Assembly: GCF_009914755.1 (NCBI RefSeq)
Contig: NC_060934.1
Origin: the human T2T-CHM13v2.0 reference genome, Homo sapiens
Direction: 5' to 3' (one strand)
Length of the DNA: 64,000 nucleotides
The notes under the pieces were generated by a model, which was not told where the DNA came from, made no database searches, and saw only the letters and a list, made by a program, of their open reading frames with translations. Below are positions 36,960-57,169 of the stretch, one piece after another. Positions within the stretch are counted from its first letter, which is position 1. Every line of letters begins with the position of its first letter. A program made the translations under genes and the position numbers.

Positions 36960-37303
36960 ACACCTGAACTCTCAGCTGACAAAGAATTCACCAGGGCAAC
37001 ATGTACTGACTCATGTACCAGCCCCATCCTGGATCAAGAGGACAGCTGGAGGGACAGTGCCTCCCCAGATGCAGGGGAAGGCCTGGGTCTCAGGCCAGAG
37101 TCTTCCCAAAAGGCCATCAGAGAGGCACAATGGGGCCAAAACAGAGAGAGACCTTGGGCCAGTTCCTTGACACATTCTCCTGAGTCCCACCCTCATTTAT
37201 GCAAACTTCACCAAGAAAGGGATGAATCAACATTGGCGACCTCTTTGGAAAAGGATGTGAGGCAAAACTGCTATTCAGTTTGTGATATCATGAGACTTGG
37301 AAG
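36960..37303 (+). CDS. FRMPD2B: FRMPD2B exon ([22 protein letters not shown]), phase 0 to 2
   Basis: Acceptor tttcttttaatag|A, donor AAG|gtaaga; 344 nt; translated by hand, no stop (missing from the ORF track for lack of an early start codon). Confidence 0.94.
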
Positions 37304-40800: not shown

Positions 40801-43257
40801 TTTGCAGAATGTTTAAGGTTATCTTTCTCTTTCTCTTTTTGCCTAGCACATATCATTAAACTCATGTAAGTAAAATGCACGTAAGTTCCACAAGCATCAC
40901 TTTGTGAAAGTGATGGTATAAATCTTGATGGTCATTTATTTAAGAAAGCAAAATGAAGCAGGACTCCTGGAAATGAACCTAAAGTTATGATATACCTTCT
41001 GGGGAAGGGCACTGCCTGGAATAGCAAAAGATAATTAGGAGGCCAGAGATCTCACTCAACTGCAGGGGCCGGGCCAGGTGTGATGTCAGAGTAGTTAGGG
41101 AGGGATGCAGTTGCCAGGTGAGGGAGATGTCATGCCTGCTCTTGGGTTGGAGTGTGGCTGAGGGGAGTGAGGGAGGCGGCAGAGCCTGGGCTAGATCCTG
41201 GATGCTGCCTCTAGCAGGATTCTCTTTACACCTTACAGGCTCCCAGGGCTATCCTTGGGTATCCCCAGATACCCAGGGGTATCTGTCCACACTACTGTGA
41301 CAAATCCTAAGTATTGTACTTCAGCTCAGATTTATCATCTGAGCTTCAAATCTGGCAGTCCGTTGAACTTGTTTACTTTGATGTCTTAGAGATACTGTAA
41401 ATCCAACCTGCCAAAACTAAATGCAGTTGTCAGGAGCAGAGACCTGGGGCTCCCAGCTGTGTCATCAGGGCTAATGGAGACATCAGTATGGGGCCTGATG
41501 TTGGAGAACTGGAGACATGAAGGGACACAAACCCCAAACTTTGTTGTGAGTTTAACCGTAAGTAAATAGGACAATTATAATACCTTCATATTTCAAGCCT
41601 GAAATGCCCAATCTGCTTCTATGAATTTCCTCCTGAAAGGCAGAGATGAATTTGGTGGCCCAAGTCTTTAAAGGACAGCTGTCCAGAAAAGTTGGGCACA
41701 GTGTCTTTTCTCAGTAAACATTCTGTAGCAAGCAGAGCCTTCAGAATGGTTTCACTGACTTCAGAGCTGAACTGGGATTCCTCTTAAAAATACCCACTGA
41801 AGAGTTTCAGGACTTGGTGGGGACCCTGGTTCTGGGGTCCTGCTGGTTTGTATGGGAGACATGGCTGGCCAGGAAGCCCAAGTGAAATCTCCAGATTCTC
41901 CTCTAGTTATCATCTGTCTATAAAAGCCTCCTTCTGTTGGACAGCTTGGTGGGCAGAGAGTGAGGGCAGGAAGAAGCTGAGATCATTACACAGAATCAGG
42001 GGGTGAGCAGAGAGCCCCGTGTACTCCGACAGCATCAGGGTCTTGCTGAAAGTCCTGCTACATTAGCCATGAGCTGGCCGGCCTTGAACCCTGGGTGAAG
42101 AACTCCACCTCTTTACTCATCATGTCCACATGCAAAACATGAGGCTTGCTGTGAAAGAATGTCTCTATCTTAATGAAATTCTCCAAATTTCCAAGTCTTG
42201 CCCTTTCTGTGAAATAGGCATACAGGCTTCTGGTGCCTCTTTATTCCCTATTCACCCTTTCCCTATGTCCACAGTTGAGCCCCAGGTCAAATCTCCAAGG
42301 GCAGCCTGATGGCACGTGCAAAAGGATAGAAGGAAAGGCAGTCGTTCTCCCAACTTGTGGTGGGATGATGGCCAAGATTTCACCCTTGGGACCACCAAGT
42401 CCCCCTGGACAAGTGGGGAGCAAATCGCTTTTTCTTTGGTTGAACCTCAGATGAAGCCTTGCCTCTTGCCTCTCAGGCTGATGGCTTCTCTAGGTCTCTG
42501 TCCAGGCAGAGCCAGTAGCTGGAGCTCAGAATCAAAACCAGAGGGCAAGGAGCTTATTAGAAGAGGTGGAGGGAGTCTACGGGTGGGAGGTGAGGTGTGG
42601 ACACTGAGGCAGCTGCAGTGGCCAATGGACACATACAGCTGCCATCTTCCACTCCTCAACAAGGCTTAGTGAGCTCAGAAAGGAGGGAAGGGGGTGCTGC
42701 TTGAGGTGGTGGGGACAGTGGTGAGCCTAGGCCTGGGCAATAGGCTAGATTTCCCATTCTTTGATAAAACTTCTTGAATGTTTCTTTCCCATGTTTATAA
42801 GAAAACACAGTTTCTACATGATTTAGCCAAGCTTAAAGTCAATTTTCCCTGCAAATGCTCAAGAATTAAAAATGTCTTTTGACAGTGAGTGTTCCTCTTC
42901 AGTCTTTGTAGAATAATTTCTTTTTTATACACTTGAGTGTGCATATATTTACATGAAATTCACTATTTCACATACCTTGTAGCTCTCATGAGTGGAAATA
43001 ATGTCTCTTTCACAGTGAAGCTCAGTTTGGGACAGATGCTTCCGGCTCTACTGGGGAGGAGGACGTGCTCTCTGGGTATCTAAGGGTTTGTAGCTATTGG
43101 GGTGCACCAGAGCCAATTTTAAGAGAAAGAGGCAATGCAGGAAAGGAGAAGGAGAGCAGCAGCACATAACAAAGCCAACCCATTGATTTGGGTGGGGGTA
43201 AGGAGGCTGAGAAATGAGGATCCATGTATTTGCTAAATCTTTGTGCTTTTCTCTTAG

Positions 43258-43306
43258 ATATTCCTTCTCATCTCCTCTAACCAGACTTTCGACAGATATT
43301 TTCTGA
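43258..43306 (+). CDS. FRMPD2B: FRMPD2B terminal coding exon (R-YSFSSPLTRLSTDIF*)
   Basis: Strong acceptor ctttgtgcttttctcttag|A; phase 2 completes AGA; TGA at 43304-43306. Confidence 0.92.
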
Positions 43307-43838
43307 GCACCTTCTCTGCATGTCTGCAGTGCTGTGTAAAATGCCCTACCTTTGCATGGACTATTCTTTCTAATCAAGAGGCGTGTGTGGCGAACTTGGG
43401 GCAGCCCCTGGAAGTCTTGTTCTTTGACCATTACGTCTGCGGCTGCATCACCAGATAATGAGCTTCACCACTTGTCTGCCTCCTGTGTCCTTCCGCGGGG
43501 AGTAAATGTCACTTCAGCTTGCCGCATCTCTAAATAGGCAAATTTTCAGTGCTCAGAAAAGGACCTGATCTTTGCACAAAGTGCTTTGATGGTTGCCTGC
43601 TTGAGTCACTCCCAATCCCTTCCTGAAGCCCTTTCTTTATAATTCTTCTGTTGAAATAGCCATCATATTCACAGTACTAATCACAGCATCTCACATTTAC
43701 TAAAAACTTACCCCATACCAGGAACCCAGAGTTGGGGGGGCTGTGTCAGAATTATGTAATTTACGTGTCCCAATAATCCTAGATGCTTCTTGACCATCTA
43801 GTTTTGTCAAATGAGAAAACTGAGGTTCCAAAGAAGTC

Positions 43839-44050
43839 AATAAACTTGTCCAAAGTCTGACCGACTCTGCTTGCCATGTGACGAGTCTGTCTTAGAACTG
43901 GGTCATTGCCCTGCTTGCAATGCTGTGCCCTCTGGCAAGCCCCCCCACCCCCCTGGTCTCCTGAGCTCGGTAAGGTGCTCCAGCTGCCTCTACCATAGCA
44001 CTTCCTACATGGACTGTAACATTTCTTTACTGCTCCAACTTCTCATTAAA
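43839..44050 (+). terminator. Candidate poly(A) signals of FRMPD2B: AATAAA 43839-43844 (in a MIR-like remnant) and ATTAAA 44045-44050
   Basis: Hexamers seen 530 and 740 nt after the stop codon; usage not demonstrable from sequence. Confidence 0.5.
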
Positions 44051-44253
44051 TTGGGGGCTCCTCAAAGCCAGGGTTGGTGCCTTATAAGTTTCTTGCTTCC
44101 TGGTGCCCAGAGCAGCCTCTGGCATGAGCTGTTTGAACACTGGCTGAGTCTCACGGGCCTGTGTCGTGCAGAGTATTCTAAAAGGCAAGGGGAAGGTGGG
44201 GTGAGGAATTTTTTTTATCAAGGCTGGAAGAAACATGGGCTTCTGTATTCTAG

Positions 44254-44535
44254 TCCTGAATTGGATGGGGAGGATGGGGAAGGTGACATGTACCATCCAT
44301 GTGGAGCCCCTTCTCCCACCTCGGAGGATGAAGAGTATCTTACCATCAACTCTACATGCCAAGGCCAGCTACCCTGTGAAGAATGTTTGGAGGCAGATTC
44401 TGGGACCATTCCCTTGCCACAGTTCTGCTCTTGGGGCACTGTCCCAGAGTCTTTGCCTCCAGAAGAGTCCCCAGAGAGTGGGAGTGAATGGGAAGACCTG
44501 GAGGAGCCTGTGGCCCTGGAATACGGTGCCCTCAG
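44254..44535 (+). CDS. Candidate alternative/ancestral FRMPD2 coding exon (S-PELDGEDGEGD..ESGSEWEDLEEPVALEYGALR), phase 2 to 2
   Basis: Acceptor ttctgtattctag|T, donor CAG|gtgggt; 282 nt; in phase with the donor at 37303; protein-like acidic sequence inside the longest ORF of the window. Confidence 0.65.
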
Positions 44536-46728
44536 GTGGGTGTCACTCTGGCTGGGTGAACTGGGGCTGAGCTCTGACCAGAGCAGGGCTCAGTGCTATC
44601 AAGCCACTTCAACTGGGGGTGGGGGATGGTCTGTGGGCATTGCCCAGTTTCCCCTGCATCTTCTTTGGGGGTCATGCATCATTGTAATGGCCATTTTCAC
44701 AGAACACTTACCATGGCCCTTGCACCATGACAACGACCTACAACATGGGGACTGTCATCACCCCCATTTCACACATGACACATTTGGGGCTTTCCCAAGG
44801 TTATCCAATAAGTAAGTGACAGAACTAGAATTCAAACCTGATCGGTTCCCCACTCCACGGCCCACCTGTCGAGCACCCATCTGTTCTGCCTCCTATGTAC
44901 AGGAGTGTGCATCCCTCTCCTCAGGTCTCTCTCTTTTGGGGGTCTGAATGTCTAGTGCTGATTCCTGTTTTGCCTGCTCCTACCTGCCCCTCTGCTGGAT
45001 GTACTGCAGAGAAGAGTCTTGGTGTCCTGTCATAGGGCCCATCTTGTTGGACTGCTGTGGCTGAGTATAGACCAGCATCAGGAAAGTCTCACTGTTAATG
45101 CAAGGAGCCACCAGAAGCTGACCTGGTCACCAGGCAGGGTCAGAACATATTGATGAGGACACAGAAAAAGTAAGGGCAACAGAAACTGTCACACTGGGAA
45201 GAAGGGAGGTTAAATTCTGGGCAGGTCTGTAACCACTCAACATTCTGTTAAAGTACTTACAGTGTATATTTAAAAATGCTGAATGTTCCAAAAACTTTCA
45301 CATAAACACAGTTTCAAGGTCCACTGAAACTTAACGAGACAACAGTTTGAGAAGTTTCAAGTATAATTGAAACCCACTCCTTAACTTTCCTCCTATTGTG
45401 TCCCAGCTCCATTTTCCTGGCTGTACATAAGGAAGCTCAGCCACCACAAATGATTGAGCTGGAGCCTCAGAGGACAGTGGTGGGCCAGCTGATAAGGAGA
45501 GTGGATATTTGAAATTAAAATATAACAAAAGGGCTGGTTCTTATCTGAAATAGGAAGCAACAAGTTAATAGAGTGGAAGATTCAGAGGCTTTGAAGACTG
45601 TGCATGTTCATTTATGGGGAAGTACAACACTTTACAGCATTGGGAGTGTACGTTATGGATTCACAGAAATGTGGGCAAGCAGGAAGCAGCTTGTATGCAG
45701 GGGGCAGTCTTCTTGGAGCTGGCTCCGCAGGGCTGGGAAACAGAAAGAAGAAGGCTGAGCAATTGGTGGGGACCACAAGGGCCAGTCCACTGAGATCTGC
45801 AGTGCGTCTGAGCCAGCCGGGAAGAGAAAGGCAGAAGATGTGGCATTGTGGTTGGGGGAGCTCAGATTTGAAGCCTGGCCCTGCCACTCACTGGCTGGGA
45901 GACCTGCAGCACATGACTTTTAAACCATTCAATATGCAGCTGACTGCCAGATAACCAAACCCACTTCATGCGGTTATGACAACGCCAGGTGTGTAGTGGT
46001 AAGCGCTTAAAAAACATTAGCTATTTTTATCATCAATCACAAAGGAGAGAATTACTCCAGTGAGAAGATATAAGCTTTTTAATGCATTCAATCCTGTTGG
46101 GTTTTTTCCATGTAGTCAAAGAAACTAGACAGTTGGACTTGTGCCCTAACATGTGGTATGGGTCTGGGTGGGGAGAAGCACTCACCTATGGCAAGGGTGC
46201 CAGGCTCTACCATGCCCTCATCTATATATGGACTGTAGCATGGGCTGTGCTCAGGGTGAGTCCTGTTAGAATCACTGATCCTGCACAAAAAGGAGAACAG
46301 GTCTCACCCTCCCCTGCAGACAGAGGATGGGTGTGCCAACATGAGTGCCCAAGGCATGAGTTCTTAGTTTGGCTCCATGCAGCAGCCCACAGGTGTTCTT
46401 CATGGCATCTATGGGCTATTGCACCTAGAATGTTGACTTGTGTGCTTCTTTTGGGAAATACAGGTCTTAACAGCCTTTAAATTCTCCAAAGTGTCTATAA
46501 CCCCTATAAGCTGAACCCCCTCCACTGTATATATTATCTCATTTATAAAGAGGACTTTGCCTACAGAGCAGTGTAGCCTTTAAACCTAATCACCAATTAT
46601 TTCATTTGGTCCTTTTAGACATTAAGACAGTCATAGTGCGTCTTAAGGTAGTTTCTACATGTGATTTAACTTAATCCTTATGTCAGTTTTGAGTGATATT
46701 CTTATTTCTGTTTTTAAAGGGGGCTTAG

Positions 46729-54981: not shown

Positions 54982-56244
54982 CACCCATGAGGGTTTATAA
55001 AAAATTGAGGCCAGGAGTAGAAAATTCCTCTGAAAAGAGTTGTTGGAATGCTATGACATTTCCCCTTCCATACCTCTTTCCCCTCCTTGTGGAGGGGAGA
55101 GGAATGAGGTACCTCTCCTTTCCCTCCAGCCACATGAGAAAGACTGCTCAAATCATATACAGGGTTTGACATGTGTCTTCTGAAAGGGCTTGGTGTCTGG
55201 AACATCCCTGAGCAATCTCATGGTGAGAGGTGATGACGGCAACAACATGTCTGGCGGGAGAGCAAAGAGAAAGAGGATGGCGCTAGGAGTGAACCGCCAA
55301 TCCCCGTGTCAGGGCAAGGGCGCGGATGCCCTTTTTATGTAGGCAAGTAAGCTGCAGGCAGGTCATAGCCTGTAAAACAAGCAGGGGTGATGTTGACCCC
55401 AGCAGAGAGAGAGCCAGAGCCTCAGCTCACACAGAGCATGCATTAGGGGGAATCACAAAAAGGCATCCACCTGTAGCTTATGAATTACACAAAGGTGGCC
55501 CTTCCTTTCCTGTGCAGCCCATTATTGGGGCACAAAACCATGCCTACAACTCAGCCTCCACTTACTCATTTGTCTGGTACCTTTATTCATGGCACAAATT
55601 ACATAAACAGATTGGTAGCCCTGGATGGGCCAAGGAATGGTCTTGTAAGTAGCTGGGCAGAGGCAACATCACTGGGCATGGGTTTGTACTCAGAGATCTT
55701 CTGCAGGGGAATTCCTGAGAAAACACAAGATTGTCTCACAGAAGAAATGGCCAGCTCAAAATATCTGCTGAGCCCAGGGGGCCCATTGCTGAAGGACTCC
55801 AGCTGTAGAGGTGTCAGACACCCACTGAGTCTGGAGGGCCTGGGTGTGAAGCTGGGTGAGAAAGGAGAAATTGATGGTACCCATTTCTCAGGCTGAAGGT
55901 GAAGAGAGCCTAACAATTAGATAAGTCAGAGGGAATCTTAAACTGAAATGGGAATATTCTGGGTGTTCAAAGTTATAAACCAGCCCAAGATTTCATCTGC
56001 ACGGGCCCAGGGGAAAAAAGCATCTGGGCATTGAGTTCAAATGGCATTGGAAAGAAATTTGCACTCTGTTAGGTCCAGCTAATGAGATGCAGTTCAATGA
56101 AGACATCTGTATTCTTGCTGTAAAGCACAGGGCTTGGCGCAGACCAAGGAATGACTCATAAGGATTAAAAGGCATGAAACCAGGTTCTTTCTTAGAATTT
56201 GGCAGTCTTTGCACTTCACTTTCTGCCACATCATTATTTTACAG

Positions 56245-56430
56245 TTAGTACGTAGAGCTGGAAGTGGAGGGCAGGACATTTATGTTCAAGGGTTTGTGGC
56301 AGGCTCTCCTGCCAGCTGAGCAGCTCTCTCCTGTCGAAGTCTATGGATTCTCTCTCCTTGTGGTGTGTGCACGCAGAGCCATGGGCTGGCTGAAGCTGCA
56401 AATGGATGAGCAGCCAACAAATTGATCAAT
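56245..56430 (+). pseudogene. Decayed PDZ-domain exon
   Basis: After ttattttacag| it reads LVRRAGSGGQDIYVQGFVAGSPAS*AALSCRSLWILSPCGVCTQSHGLAEAANG*AANKLIN, colinear without gaps with PDZ2 of this window; two in-frame TGA. Confidence 0.6.
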
Positions 56431-57169
56431 CTATTAATATTTATTGGGCATCTGCCGTGTGTCAGGCTCAGGGACCAGGCAGCCGGGGATTCACAACAAG
56501 ATAAATGTATGTCCTTGTGCTCTTTAAATAGTTTTCTACCTCCACTGGGATTTTTACTGGCATTGAAATCTCCACAGTTTATTTTTATAGAGTCTTTTAT
56601 GTGAAGTGTCTCAAAGCAGGGCAGAGAGAAACAGACAGAGAGGCCCCCACGGCTTCTTCCAAGCTCATGGTCCTCATCAACTCACACTTAACAGGGCTGG
56701 GTGTGAAGCATACCATTCCCAAATGAACCAGGCTGCAAAGCACAGGCCTGAAGCAGGCGGTCCTGTGAAGGGTAATGTCAATGAAGTGATTATTTTTTTC
56801 TGTCAGTATTGTTCTTAGTTATCTTCTGTTCCTGGGCTCCAAGCCTGAATTAGAAAACTCTGAACTCGAGCATAGGCCTTGGGATCTCTCCTGAGGTCCT
56901 GAGTTCCAGCTATCCACTGGGGTCCTCCTGACTGTATCTGGGGACCCATGGCTTGGAGGAGGGTATGTTTGGCAGTAAGTTCTTATACTTGTAAGGAGTA
57001 GATGAGCCCTACCTCAGCAGAGAGCAGACATTGGCACGGCCCTCAAGGTCCATCTCAGAGGGCGTCTGGGTATCCGGATCAAGGCCAAGGACTGCAAAGA
57101 CAAAAATTCCAAACCCAGCATTACCTCCCTGTGCTGGCCAATTCTGCTCCTCCAGCTGAGCCTTCCCAG

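What the first reader, a model, noticed from the sequence alone, without database searches (positions are those of the whole stretch)
56245..56430. Fossil PDZ exon in 'intergenic' DNA, ungapped and colinear with PDZ2
After a good acceptor (tcattattttacag) the frame reads ..GSGGQD-IYVQGFVAGSPAS*AALSCRSLW-ILSPCGVCTQSHGLAEA. PDZ2 of this window reads ..[44 protein letters not shown]. Counting from the I of IYV, IYV(1-3), V7, G9, PA(11-12), I/L-L(24-25), GV(29-30) and A40 fall at identical offsets with no gap. TGA at 56317 and 56407 hide it from ORF finders. An exon starting just after the GLG loop also fits PDZ exon structure. It is far too diverged to be a recent copy of PDZ2, so it is best read as one of the lost downstream PDZ domains.
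Basis: partly seen in the sequence, partly recalled or inferred. Interest (0 to 1): 0.85.

Follow-up and report, generated by a model that had tools for sequence, protein, structure and literature searches.

The report
Decayed PDZ exon between FRMPD2B and PTPN20
This stretch of human chromosome 10 is the broken remnant of an exon that once encoded the fifth PDZ domain of a single large FRMPD2-PTPN20 gene, which birds, reptiles, fish and marsupials still have whole and placental mammals have in two parts.

Summary
Window 56239-56409 (+) reads, without a gap, as the middle of one specific PDZ domain. It is the fifth of six PDZ domains in the long FRMPD2/PTPN20 proteins of birds, reptiles, fish and sharks, and the fourth of five in marsupial models.

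- **Generic tests fail.** Pfam PDZ gives no hit at E<=10. PDB gives E about 0.9.
- **A profile of the orthologous domain passes.** A profile from 95 distinct non-placental sequences scores 25.8 bits (P 4.3e-10). Profiles of PDZ1, 2, 3 and 6 score -0.9 to 0.6 bits, and PDZ4 gives nothing.
- **It is the best PDZ5 hit in the window.** E is 2.3e-6 among 2130 six-frame pieces.
- **Shuffles do not reach it.** None of 12,000 shuffles does; the maximum is 8.0 bits.
- **It is colinear.** It sits between the FRMPD2 read-through exon and the PTPN20 exons.
- **It is dead.** It has two in-frame TGA, and 19 of 36 conserved residues are lost. An interspersed repeat abuts its 3' side.
- **No placental model has it.** None of 113 FRMPD2 models without a PDZ5 orthologue (110 named placental) has a PDZ after PDZ3.

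That FRMPD2 plus PTPN20 derive from one gene was published in 2012. I did not find the relic exon itself in print.

The parts
56239..56409 (+). Recognisable relic of the PDZ5 exon: 57 codons in one frame, aligned without a gap to profile positions 24-80. It runs from the strand after the GLG loop, through the IYV and GSPAS motifs and the I-C-G turn, to the first helix turn of the second helix.
   Evidence: 25.8 bits, P 4.3e-10, against the PDZ5 profile. 13-23 (median 21) of 57 residues are identical to each of 95 distinct orthologues. 17 of 36 columns that are at least 90% conserved are kept.
56317..56319 (+). First in-frame TGA. It aligns to a variable position: V in birds, R in koala and sugar glider, K in wallaby.
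56407..56409 (+). Second in-frame TGA. It aligns to a Cys kept in 94% of orthologues. One base change from a Cys codon gives TGA (inference).
56220..56244 (+). By analogy with PTPN13 the ancestral exon began near 56237, so the last two codons of this tract (L, Q) are already exon. No AG remains at the PTPN13-equivalent place.
   Evidence: sequence. (PTPN13 exon starts at profile position 23, with a phase-1 intron in the Gly codon). (alignment starts at the L at 56239).
56410..56448 (+). Expected last 13 codons of the ancestral exon (profile positions 81-93, by PTPN13 analogy). They are no longer alignable, and an interspersed repeat overlaps or abuts them.
   Evidence: no partial profile hit in any frame of 56395-56900; the 30-mer at 56438-56467 has 7 genome matches at up to 3 mismatches, against 0 for the reversed control.
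44252..44590 (+). The preceding colinear exon of the ancestral gene. Its frame is open. It lies 182 bp beyond the annotated end of FRMPD2B.
   Evidence: Koala P0115 residues 1298-1407, E 7.7e-11. It is the terminal coding exon of placental 'isoform X1' models; macaque P0007 is 98% identical over 95 aa.

Best explanation
Window 56239-56409 is a dead exon (pseudo-exon). It is the orthologue of the exon that encodes most of the fifth PDZ domain of the ancestral KIND-FERM-PDZx6-PTP gene.

That gene is still one unit in sharks, ray-finned fish, coelacanth, reptiles and birds. It is also one unit in marsupial models, which lack PDZ4. In placental mammals the same locus is annotated as two units: FRMPD2, which ends after PDZ3, and PTPN20, which has the phosphatase only.

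I infer the following history. In the placental stem the exons for PDZ5 and PDZ6 stopped being used. FRMPD2 came to end in its own terminal exons (window 43258-44070, or 44252 onward in the long isoform). PTPN20 came to start at its own promoter (60189). The unused PDZ5 exon then drifted. It picked up two TGA stops, lost about half of its conserved residues, lost its acceptor AG at the ancestral place, and lost its 3' end to, or beside, an interspersed repeat.

It has no function of its own. It survives because about 170 bp of neutral DNA in the slowly evolving human lineage is not yet erased. The human segmental duplication then copied it, so it occurs twice, identically.

Shown: identity of the domain, colinearity, decay, two copies, absence from placental protein models. 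Inferred: order and timing of events, neutrality.
For: - **Colinear, domain-specific tblastn hits.** 7 of 7 non-placental proteins hit 56239-56316..56388 with the same PDZ and with no other of their PDZ domains, E 0.009-3.0.
- **Profiles.** Six domain profiles were built from 121 non-placental proteins. The stretch scores 25.8 bits against PDZ5 (P 4.3e-10), -0.9 to 0.6 bits against PDZ1, 2, 3 and 6, and is not reported against PDZ4.
- **Clade profiles.** Fish and sharks 21.5 bits, marsupials 22.1, reptiles 19.2, birds 23.6.
- **Window scan.** It is the best of 2130 pieces for PDZ5, E 2.3e-6. It stays the best of 4794 pieces over 144 kb, E 5.2e-6.
- **Shuffles.** 0 of 9000 and 0 of 3000 reach it; the maximum is 8.0 bits.
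- **Exon order, wallaby P0215 against human.** 36960-37289, 44252-44590, 56239-56367, then PTPN20 exons at window-scale 92684, 113778, 116779, 133024 and 136129.
- **Exon start.** The paralogous human PTPN13 exon starts at the same profile position. The chr4 locus was identified as PTPN13 through PDB entry 1wch.
- **Decay.** Two TGA stops; 19 of 36 conserved columns are lost, including the invariant K2, T4, G13 and G29.
- **Placental models.** Of the 113 proteins that lack a PDZ5 orthologue (110 carry placental species names, 3 are unnamed), 0 have any PDZ profile hit above 5 bits after PDZ3. None of the 120 best of 208 PDZ5 relatives listed is placental, while three marsupials are.
- **Not a high-copy repeat.** 56100-56500 has only 2 genome copies, itself and the segmental-duplication copy at 100% identity.
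- **Literature.** FRMPD2 and PTPN20 were shown to be one PTPN13-like gene (PMC3335823, passages read).
Against: - The generic Pfam PDZ model gives no hit at E<=10. PDB phmmer gives E 0.89 for PSD-95 PDZ3, no better than unrelated hits.
- Single tblastn E-values are weak, 0.009-3.0.
- The central 9 codons (56317-56343) share none of the 7 conserved residues there.
- Neither the N-terminal piece of PDZ5 nor any PDZ4 or PDZ6 trace was found in 144 kb. The relic stands alone.
- The absence of an indel over 171 bp is a little unexpected for DNA that has been neutral for about 100 million years. This is my rough estimate, not a computation.
- No DNA of other mammals could be compared. The time of death, and whether every placental shares the stops, are not shown.
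- Placental absence rests on gene models, which can miss exons.
- The literature states that a human read-through transcript exists and that the elongated human gene encodes five PDZ domains.
Confidence: 0.9

Rival explanations
1. Chance resemblance: a short PDZ-like motif (G..IYV....GSPA) thrown up by one of six frames of non-coding DNA.
For: Pfam finds nothing. PDB hits have E about 1 and are mixed with non-PDZ proteins.
Against: The match is domain-specific: 25.8 bits to PDZ5 and about 0 to the other PDZ profiles. E is 2.3e-6 in the window scan. 0 of 12,000 shuffles reach it. It is in colinear order and on the right strand. It shares lineage-specific residues with PDZ5 that are not typical of PDZ domains, such as I-C-G in place of the V-N-G seen in PTPN13 and the other PDZs, and GSPAS.
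Confidence: 0.02
2. A live but unannotated exon. It is still spliced into FRMPD2-PTPN20 read-through RNAs in humans. It could act as a poison exon whose TGA stops end translation or trigger decay. Or TGA could be recoded; the second TGA sits at a conserved Cys, the pattern seen for selenocysteine.
For: A read-through RT-PCR product from HEK293 cells with 'missing exons' between FRMPD2 and PTPN20 is reported (PMC3335823, passages). A usable-looking pyrimidine tract plus AG ends at 56244. The second TGA aligns to Cys.
Against: RefSeq lists no exon between 44070 and 60189 among 96 PTPN20 transcripts and the FRMPD2B transcript (hub table in the task). 19 of 36 conserved residues are lost, including four invariant ones. 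The exon's 3' end and donor are not recognisable, and a repeat abuts it. No protein among 5.8 billion resembles the peptide, though this is weak evidence. The first TGA is at a variable, non-Cys position. I did not look for a SECIS element.
Confidence: 0.06
3. A recent or retroposed copy of another PDZ exon, either PDZ2 or PDZ3 of FRMPD2 or one from another gene, that landed here and decayed.
For: The region is full of segmental duplications and FRMPD2 pseudogene pieces (hub table).
Against: The stretch scores about 0 bits against PDZ1-3 profiles. The only other genome copy is the segmental-duplication twin at the equivalent place beside full-length FRMPD2. The PTPN13 PDZ5 exon is a far more distant relative than bird or marsupial PDZ5. 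The strand and order are colinear.
Confidence: 0.02

Closest known systems
PDZ5 exon of the long FRMPD2/PTPN20 ('Ptpn20', PTPN13-like) gene of birds, reptiles, fish, sharks and marsupials
   Same: Same domain, same place in the exon order, same strand. 13-23 of 57 residues are identical to each of 95 distinct orthologues. The stretch shares domain-specific motifs.
   Different: The human copy has two stops, has lost 19 of 36 conserved residues, lacks a recognisable 3' end, and is in no gene model.
PDZ5 exon of human PTPN13 (PTP-BL/FAP-1), chr4
   Same: Paralogous domain. Its exon begins at the same profile position, just after the GLG loop, and encodes the rest of the domain in one exon.
   Different: It is intact and used. 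It is much more diverged in sequence: 41-42 bits to the PDZ5 profile, with V-N-G instead of I-C-G. PTPN13 showed no counterpart of the sixth PDZ in the 40 kb scanned.
Generic PDZ family (Pfam PF00595), for example PSD-95 PDZ3
   Same: A G-x-x-IYV strand and G-x-PA helix start at PDZ spacing (alignment).
   Different: It does not reach any Pfam threshold: no hit at E<=10.
Relic exons (pseudo-exons) left in introns or intergenic DNA after domain loss or gene fission
   Same: A single decayed exon in syntenic order with in-frame stops. This category is from my general knowledge; no call tested it.
   Different: Here the relic marks the seam between two units now annotated as separate genes.

Membership tests
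PDZ domain (Pfam PF00595) | Score at or above the Pfam gathering cut-off (23.2 bits) with stops read as X | tested here: not met
   0 families at E<=10 for 56245-56430 and for 56200-56450.
PDZ domain (Pfam PF00595) | A complete fold of about 80-90 residues, from the first strand and the GLG loop to the last strand | tested here: not met
   Only profile positions 24-80 of 96 are present. No trace of positions 1-23 or 81-96 was found nearby.
Orthologue of PDZ5 of the FRMPD2/PTPN20 long form | Scores specifically with the PDZ5 profile and not with the other five PDZ profiles of the same proteins | tested here: met
   25.8 bits against -0.9 to 0.6 bits, and none for PDZ4. Four clade profiles give 19.2-23.6 bits.
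Orthologue of PDZ5 of the FRMPD2/PTPN20 long form | Syntenic and colinear: same strand, between the exon after PDZ3 and the first PTPN20 exons | tested here: met
   Exon order. The synteny of the living orthologues' own genomic DNA could not be examined.
Orthologue of PDZ5 of the FRMPD2/PTPN20 long form | Exon boundary shared with relatives | tested here: inconclusive
   The start agrees with the human PTPN13 paralogue to within 1 profile position. No AG remains at that place, and no orthologous genomic DNA was available.
Pseudo-exon (non-functional relic) | Disabling lesions and loss of constrained residues | tested here: met
   Two in-frame TGA. 19 of 36 conserved columns are lost.
Pseudo-exon (non-functional relic) | Not included in mature transcripts or proteins | not testable with these tools
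   It is absent from RefSeq exons (hub table) and from protein models. No RNA data were available here.
Transposon-derived sequence | Many dispersed copies in the genome | tested here: not met
   56100-56500 has 2 copies only, though the tool says it skips very common words. In contrast, the flank at 56438-56467 does have dispersed near-copies. RepeatMasker and Dfam were not available.

The most novel reading that the evidence does not exclude
The relic may not be inert. Its surviving pyrimidine tract and AG could let it be spliced into FRMPD2-to-PTPN20 read-through RNAs as a stop-carrying poison exon. The dead PDZ5 exon would then itself keep humans from making a fused scaffold-phosphatase. 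A variant of this reading is that some placental lineages still carry it intact and make a longer protein. Either way, the published statement that the elongated human PTPN20 encodes five PDZ domains would need correcting.
Probability: 0.1. Interest if true: 0.6.

Novelty: new member of a known kind. Interest (0 to 1): 0.4.

Why it matters
The relic is direct genomic evidence, in human DNA, for how a multi-domain scaffold-phosphatase gene was cut down and split in placental mammals. The seam between FRMPD2 and PTPN20 still holds one recognisable exon of the lost part.

It also bears on a claim in print. A 2023 review says the elongated human PTPN20 gene encodes a full PTPN13 paralogue with five PDZ domains (PMC9900141, passage read). 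In both copies of the complete human assembly, the only trace of a further PDZ is this exon with two stops, and no PDZ4 or PDZ6 trace appears in 144 kb. A human read-through protein could therefore carry three PDZ domains at most.

The case also shows that a generic domain model misses such relics, while a profile of the orthologous domain finds them.

Tried and rejected
- **Pfam hmmscan** of the stretch with TGA read as X: nothing.
- **PDB phmmer:** E about 1, uninformative.
- **Search of 5.8 billion proteins with the relic peptide:** none at E<=10 among 35 candidates. The tool itself calls this weak evidence.
- **Search for the missing parts:** no PDZ4 or PDZ6 relic, and no N- or C-terminal piece of PDZ5, in 144 kb or in the flanks. 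Such short, decayed pieces would be hard to see.
- **A second tblastn hit** of marsupial PDZ5 C-terminal halves at 41125-41280 (E 0.13-3.0): gapped, not colinear, and not seen by the profile. I rejected it as chance.
- **Repeat test by local blastn** of 56100-56800 against 184 kb: only noise.
- **Whole-genome blastn of 56425-56720:** 2 copies only. The repeat next to the relic showed up only with a 30-mer pattern search. I recall it as a MIR SINE but did not test the name.
- **PDB search with the PTPN13 PDZ5 exon:** no solved structure at E<=1e-5.
- **Literature:** searches for 'PTPN20' with 'pseudoexon', with 'PTPN13' and 'placental', and with 'exon' and 'relic' found no description of this relic.

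Full report
**What is there**

In-frame TGA stops lie at 56317-56319 and 56407-56409. A pyrimidine-rich tract ending in cag lies just before 56245. I recounted the listed equal-offset matches from the two strings and they are correct.

**Generic tests do not see a PDZ**

With TGA read as X, Pfam returns 0 families at E<=10 for 56245-56430 and for 56200-56450. A phmmer search of all PDB chains gives five hits at E 0.75-1.2. Two are PSD-95 PDZ3 constructs (E 0.89, 0.98). The others are a phage receptor-binding protein and a ribokinase.

**What the locus is**

A full-text search found van Eekelen et al. 2012 (PMC3335823; passages read). It reports the following:
- frmpd2 lies 5' of ptpn20 in all species examined.
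- RT-PCR in zebrafish embryos and HEK293 cells links the two.

A 2023 review repeats this for the human gene (PMC9900141; passage read).

I then searched 5.8 billion proteins with the window's PDZ3 exon. The search returned placental FRMPD2 models with three PDZ domains. It also returned longer bird and koala models, some carrying a phosphatase domain (Pfam).

**The key result**

tblastn of 7 non-placental proteins (koala and six birds) against the window gave a hit on 56239-56316..56388 (+) in 7 of 7. The hit always came from the same domain, for example emu P0117 residues 1364-1413 and koala P0115 residues 1451-1493. No other PDZ domain of these proteins hit the stretch. E-values ran from 0.009 to 3.0, with no gap or one gap. 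Each hit is colinear after a strong hit on 44252-44590 (koala residues 1298-1407, E 7.7e-11).

A second database search with the emu domain found 208 relatives, of which the best 120 were listed. They were birds, turtles, an alligator, lizards, coelacanth, sharks and rays, ray-finned fish and three marsupials. No placental was among them.

**Domain-specific profiles**

In these proteins I located six PDZ domains. Marsupial models lack the fourth. I built one profile per domain from the 121 proteins that have a PDZ5 orthologue, of which 95 PDZ5 sequences were distinct.

Scores for the human stretch (56200-56450, stops as X):

| Profile | Score |
|---|---|
| PDZ5 | 25.8 bits, P 4.3e-10, profile positions 24-80, ungapped |
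| PDZ1 | -0.3 bits |
| PDZ2 | 0.6 bits |
| PDZ3 | 0.2 bits |
| PDZ6 | -0.9 bits |
| PDZ4 | not reported |

Profiles built from single clades give similar scores:

| Clade | Sequences | Score |
|---|---|---|
| Fish, sharks, coelacanth | 26 | 21.5 bits |
| Marsupials | 4 | 22.1 bits |
| Reptiles | 14 | 19.2 bits |
| Birds | 51 | 23.6 bits |

**Controls**

- **Window scan.** In a six-frame scan of the whole window (2130 overlapping pieces), the best PDZ5 hit is the piece holding the stretch, E 2.3e-6. It is ahead of cross-hits to the real PDZ2 exon (19.4 bits) and PDZ3 exon (13.8 bits). All other DNA scores at most 4.8 bits.
- **Extended scan.** Over 144 kb (4794 pieces) it remains the best, E 5.2e-6.
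- **Shuffles.** 0 of 9000 frames from 3000 dinucleotide shuffles, and 0 of 3000 peptide shuffles, reach 25.8 bits. The maximum is 8.0 bits.

**Colinearity**

I added 80 kb downstream from the same assembly. Wallaby P0215 then maps in this order:

| Wallaby residues | Window-scale position | What it is |
|---|---|---|
| 1175-1284 | 36960-37289 | |
| 1289-1397 | 44252-44590 | |
| 1441-1483 | 56239-56367 | the stretch |
| 1691-1724 | 92684-92782 | PTPN20 exon |
| 1764-1810 | 113778-113918 | PTPN20 exon |
| 1824-1840 | 116779-116829 | PTPN20 exon |
| 1842-1954 | 133024-133362 | PTPN20 exon |
| 1951-2026 | 136129-136356 | PTPN20 exon |

The relic therefore sits where PDZ5 should.

**Exon shape**

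In human PTPN13 the paralogous PDZ5 is one exon. The chr4 locus was identified as PTPN13 through PDB entry 1wch. That exon starts at profile position 23, with the intron inside the Gly codon of the loop, and ends after ...KATR followed by gt.

Carried over to the relic, this gives about 56237-56448.

The last 13 expected codons (56410-56448) do not align, and nothing alignable lies in the flanks. A 30-mer at 56438-56467 has 7 matches in the genome at up to 3 mismatches. Two are the stretch itself and its duplicate; five are on other chromosomes. The reversed control has 0. An interspersed repeat therefore abuts or overlaps the exon's 3' end. From memory it looks like a MIR SINE, which I could not test.

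**State of decay**

- 13-23 of 57 residues (median 21) are identical to each of the 95 orthologues.
- Of 36 columns that are at least 90% conserved from sharks to marsupials, 17 are kept and 19 are lost. The losses include the invariant K2, T4, G13 and G29.
- The second TGA falls on a Cys kept in 94% of orthologues. The first falls where koala and sugar glider have R.
- The central nine codons keep none of the seven conserved residues there. Frame 3 reads S-L where the conserved S-L is expected, so a compensated frameshift is possible but unresolved.

**Copies**

56100-56500 occurs twice in the assembly. One copy is here. The other is at chr10:48,993,041-48,993,441 (-), 100% identical. The second copy lies between full-length FRMPD2 and a second PTPN20 copy. 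The stops therefore predate the human segmental duplication.

**Who has lost it**

I examined the 113 proteins that lack a PDZ5 orthologue; 110 carry placental species names and 3 are unnamed. None has a PDZ profile hit above 5 bits after PDZ3. The tail after PDZ3 has a median of 124 aa and a maximum of 289 aa. No PDZ4 or PDZ6 relic was found in 144 kb. No protein in the large database resembles the relic peptide, which is weak evidence.

**Reading**

The stretch is the dead orthologue of the PDZ5 exon of the ancestral FRMPD2-PTPN20 gene. The order of events is inferred: loss of use in the placental stem, new FRMPD2 end, own PTPN20 promoter, neutral drift, repeat at the 3' end. No DNA of other mammals and no RNA data could be examined.

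The idea of one ancestral gene is in print. The relic exon was not found in print in three searches. These searches cover only the held library, and the 2012 paper's figures and supplements could not be seen.

The result does not fit the statement that the elongated human gene encodes five PDZ domains.

Noticed in passing
window 44252-44590 (+): An open, conserved coding exon lies 182 bp beyond the annotated 3' end of FRMPD2B (44070). It matches koala residues 1298-1407 (E 7.7e-11). It is the last coding exon of placental 'isoform X1' FRMPD2 models; macaque P0007 is 98% identical over 95 aa. It is not among the exons of NR_033172.1.
   Followed up: partly
window 56438-56467 and rightwards: An interspersed repeat abuts the relic. 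The 30-mer has 5 near-copies on chr1, 7, 11, 12 and 16, besides itself and its duplicate. The reversed control has 0. From memory it resembles a MIR SINE; I did not test the name.
   Followed up: partly
window 56317-56343 (+): The nine codons after GSPAS keep 0 of 7 conserved residues in the main frame. Frame 3 has S-L where the conserved S-L is expected. A pair of compensating one-base indels is possible.
   Followed up: no
proteins P0115, P0215, P0218 against P0117 and others: Bird, reptile, fish and shark long forms have six PDZ domains by my profiles. Marsupial models lack the fourth (no PDZ4 hit, or 21 bits elsewhere). The 2012 paper speaks of five PDZ domains.
   Followed up: partly
G000 chr10:48.91-49.10 Mb (-): The second copy of the locus holds full-length FRMPD2 followed by a PTPN20 copy. 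Its phosphatase exons match wallaby P0215 with the same score and identity as those beside the window (161.7 bits, 69%).
   Followed up: no
window 41125-41280 (+): A weak, gapped tblastn hit of marsupial PDZ5 C-terminal halves (E 0.13-3.0). It is out of order and unsupported by the profile. I judged it chance.
   Followed up: yes
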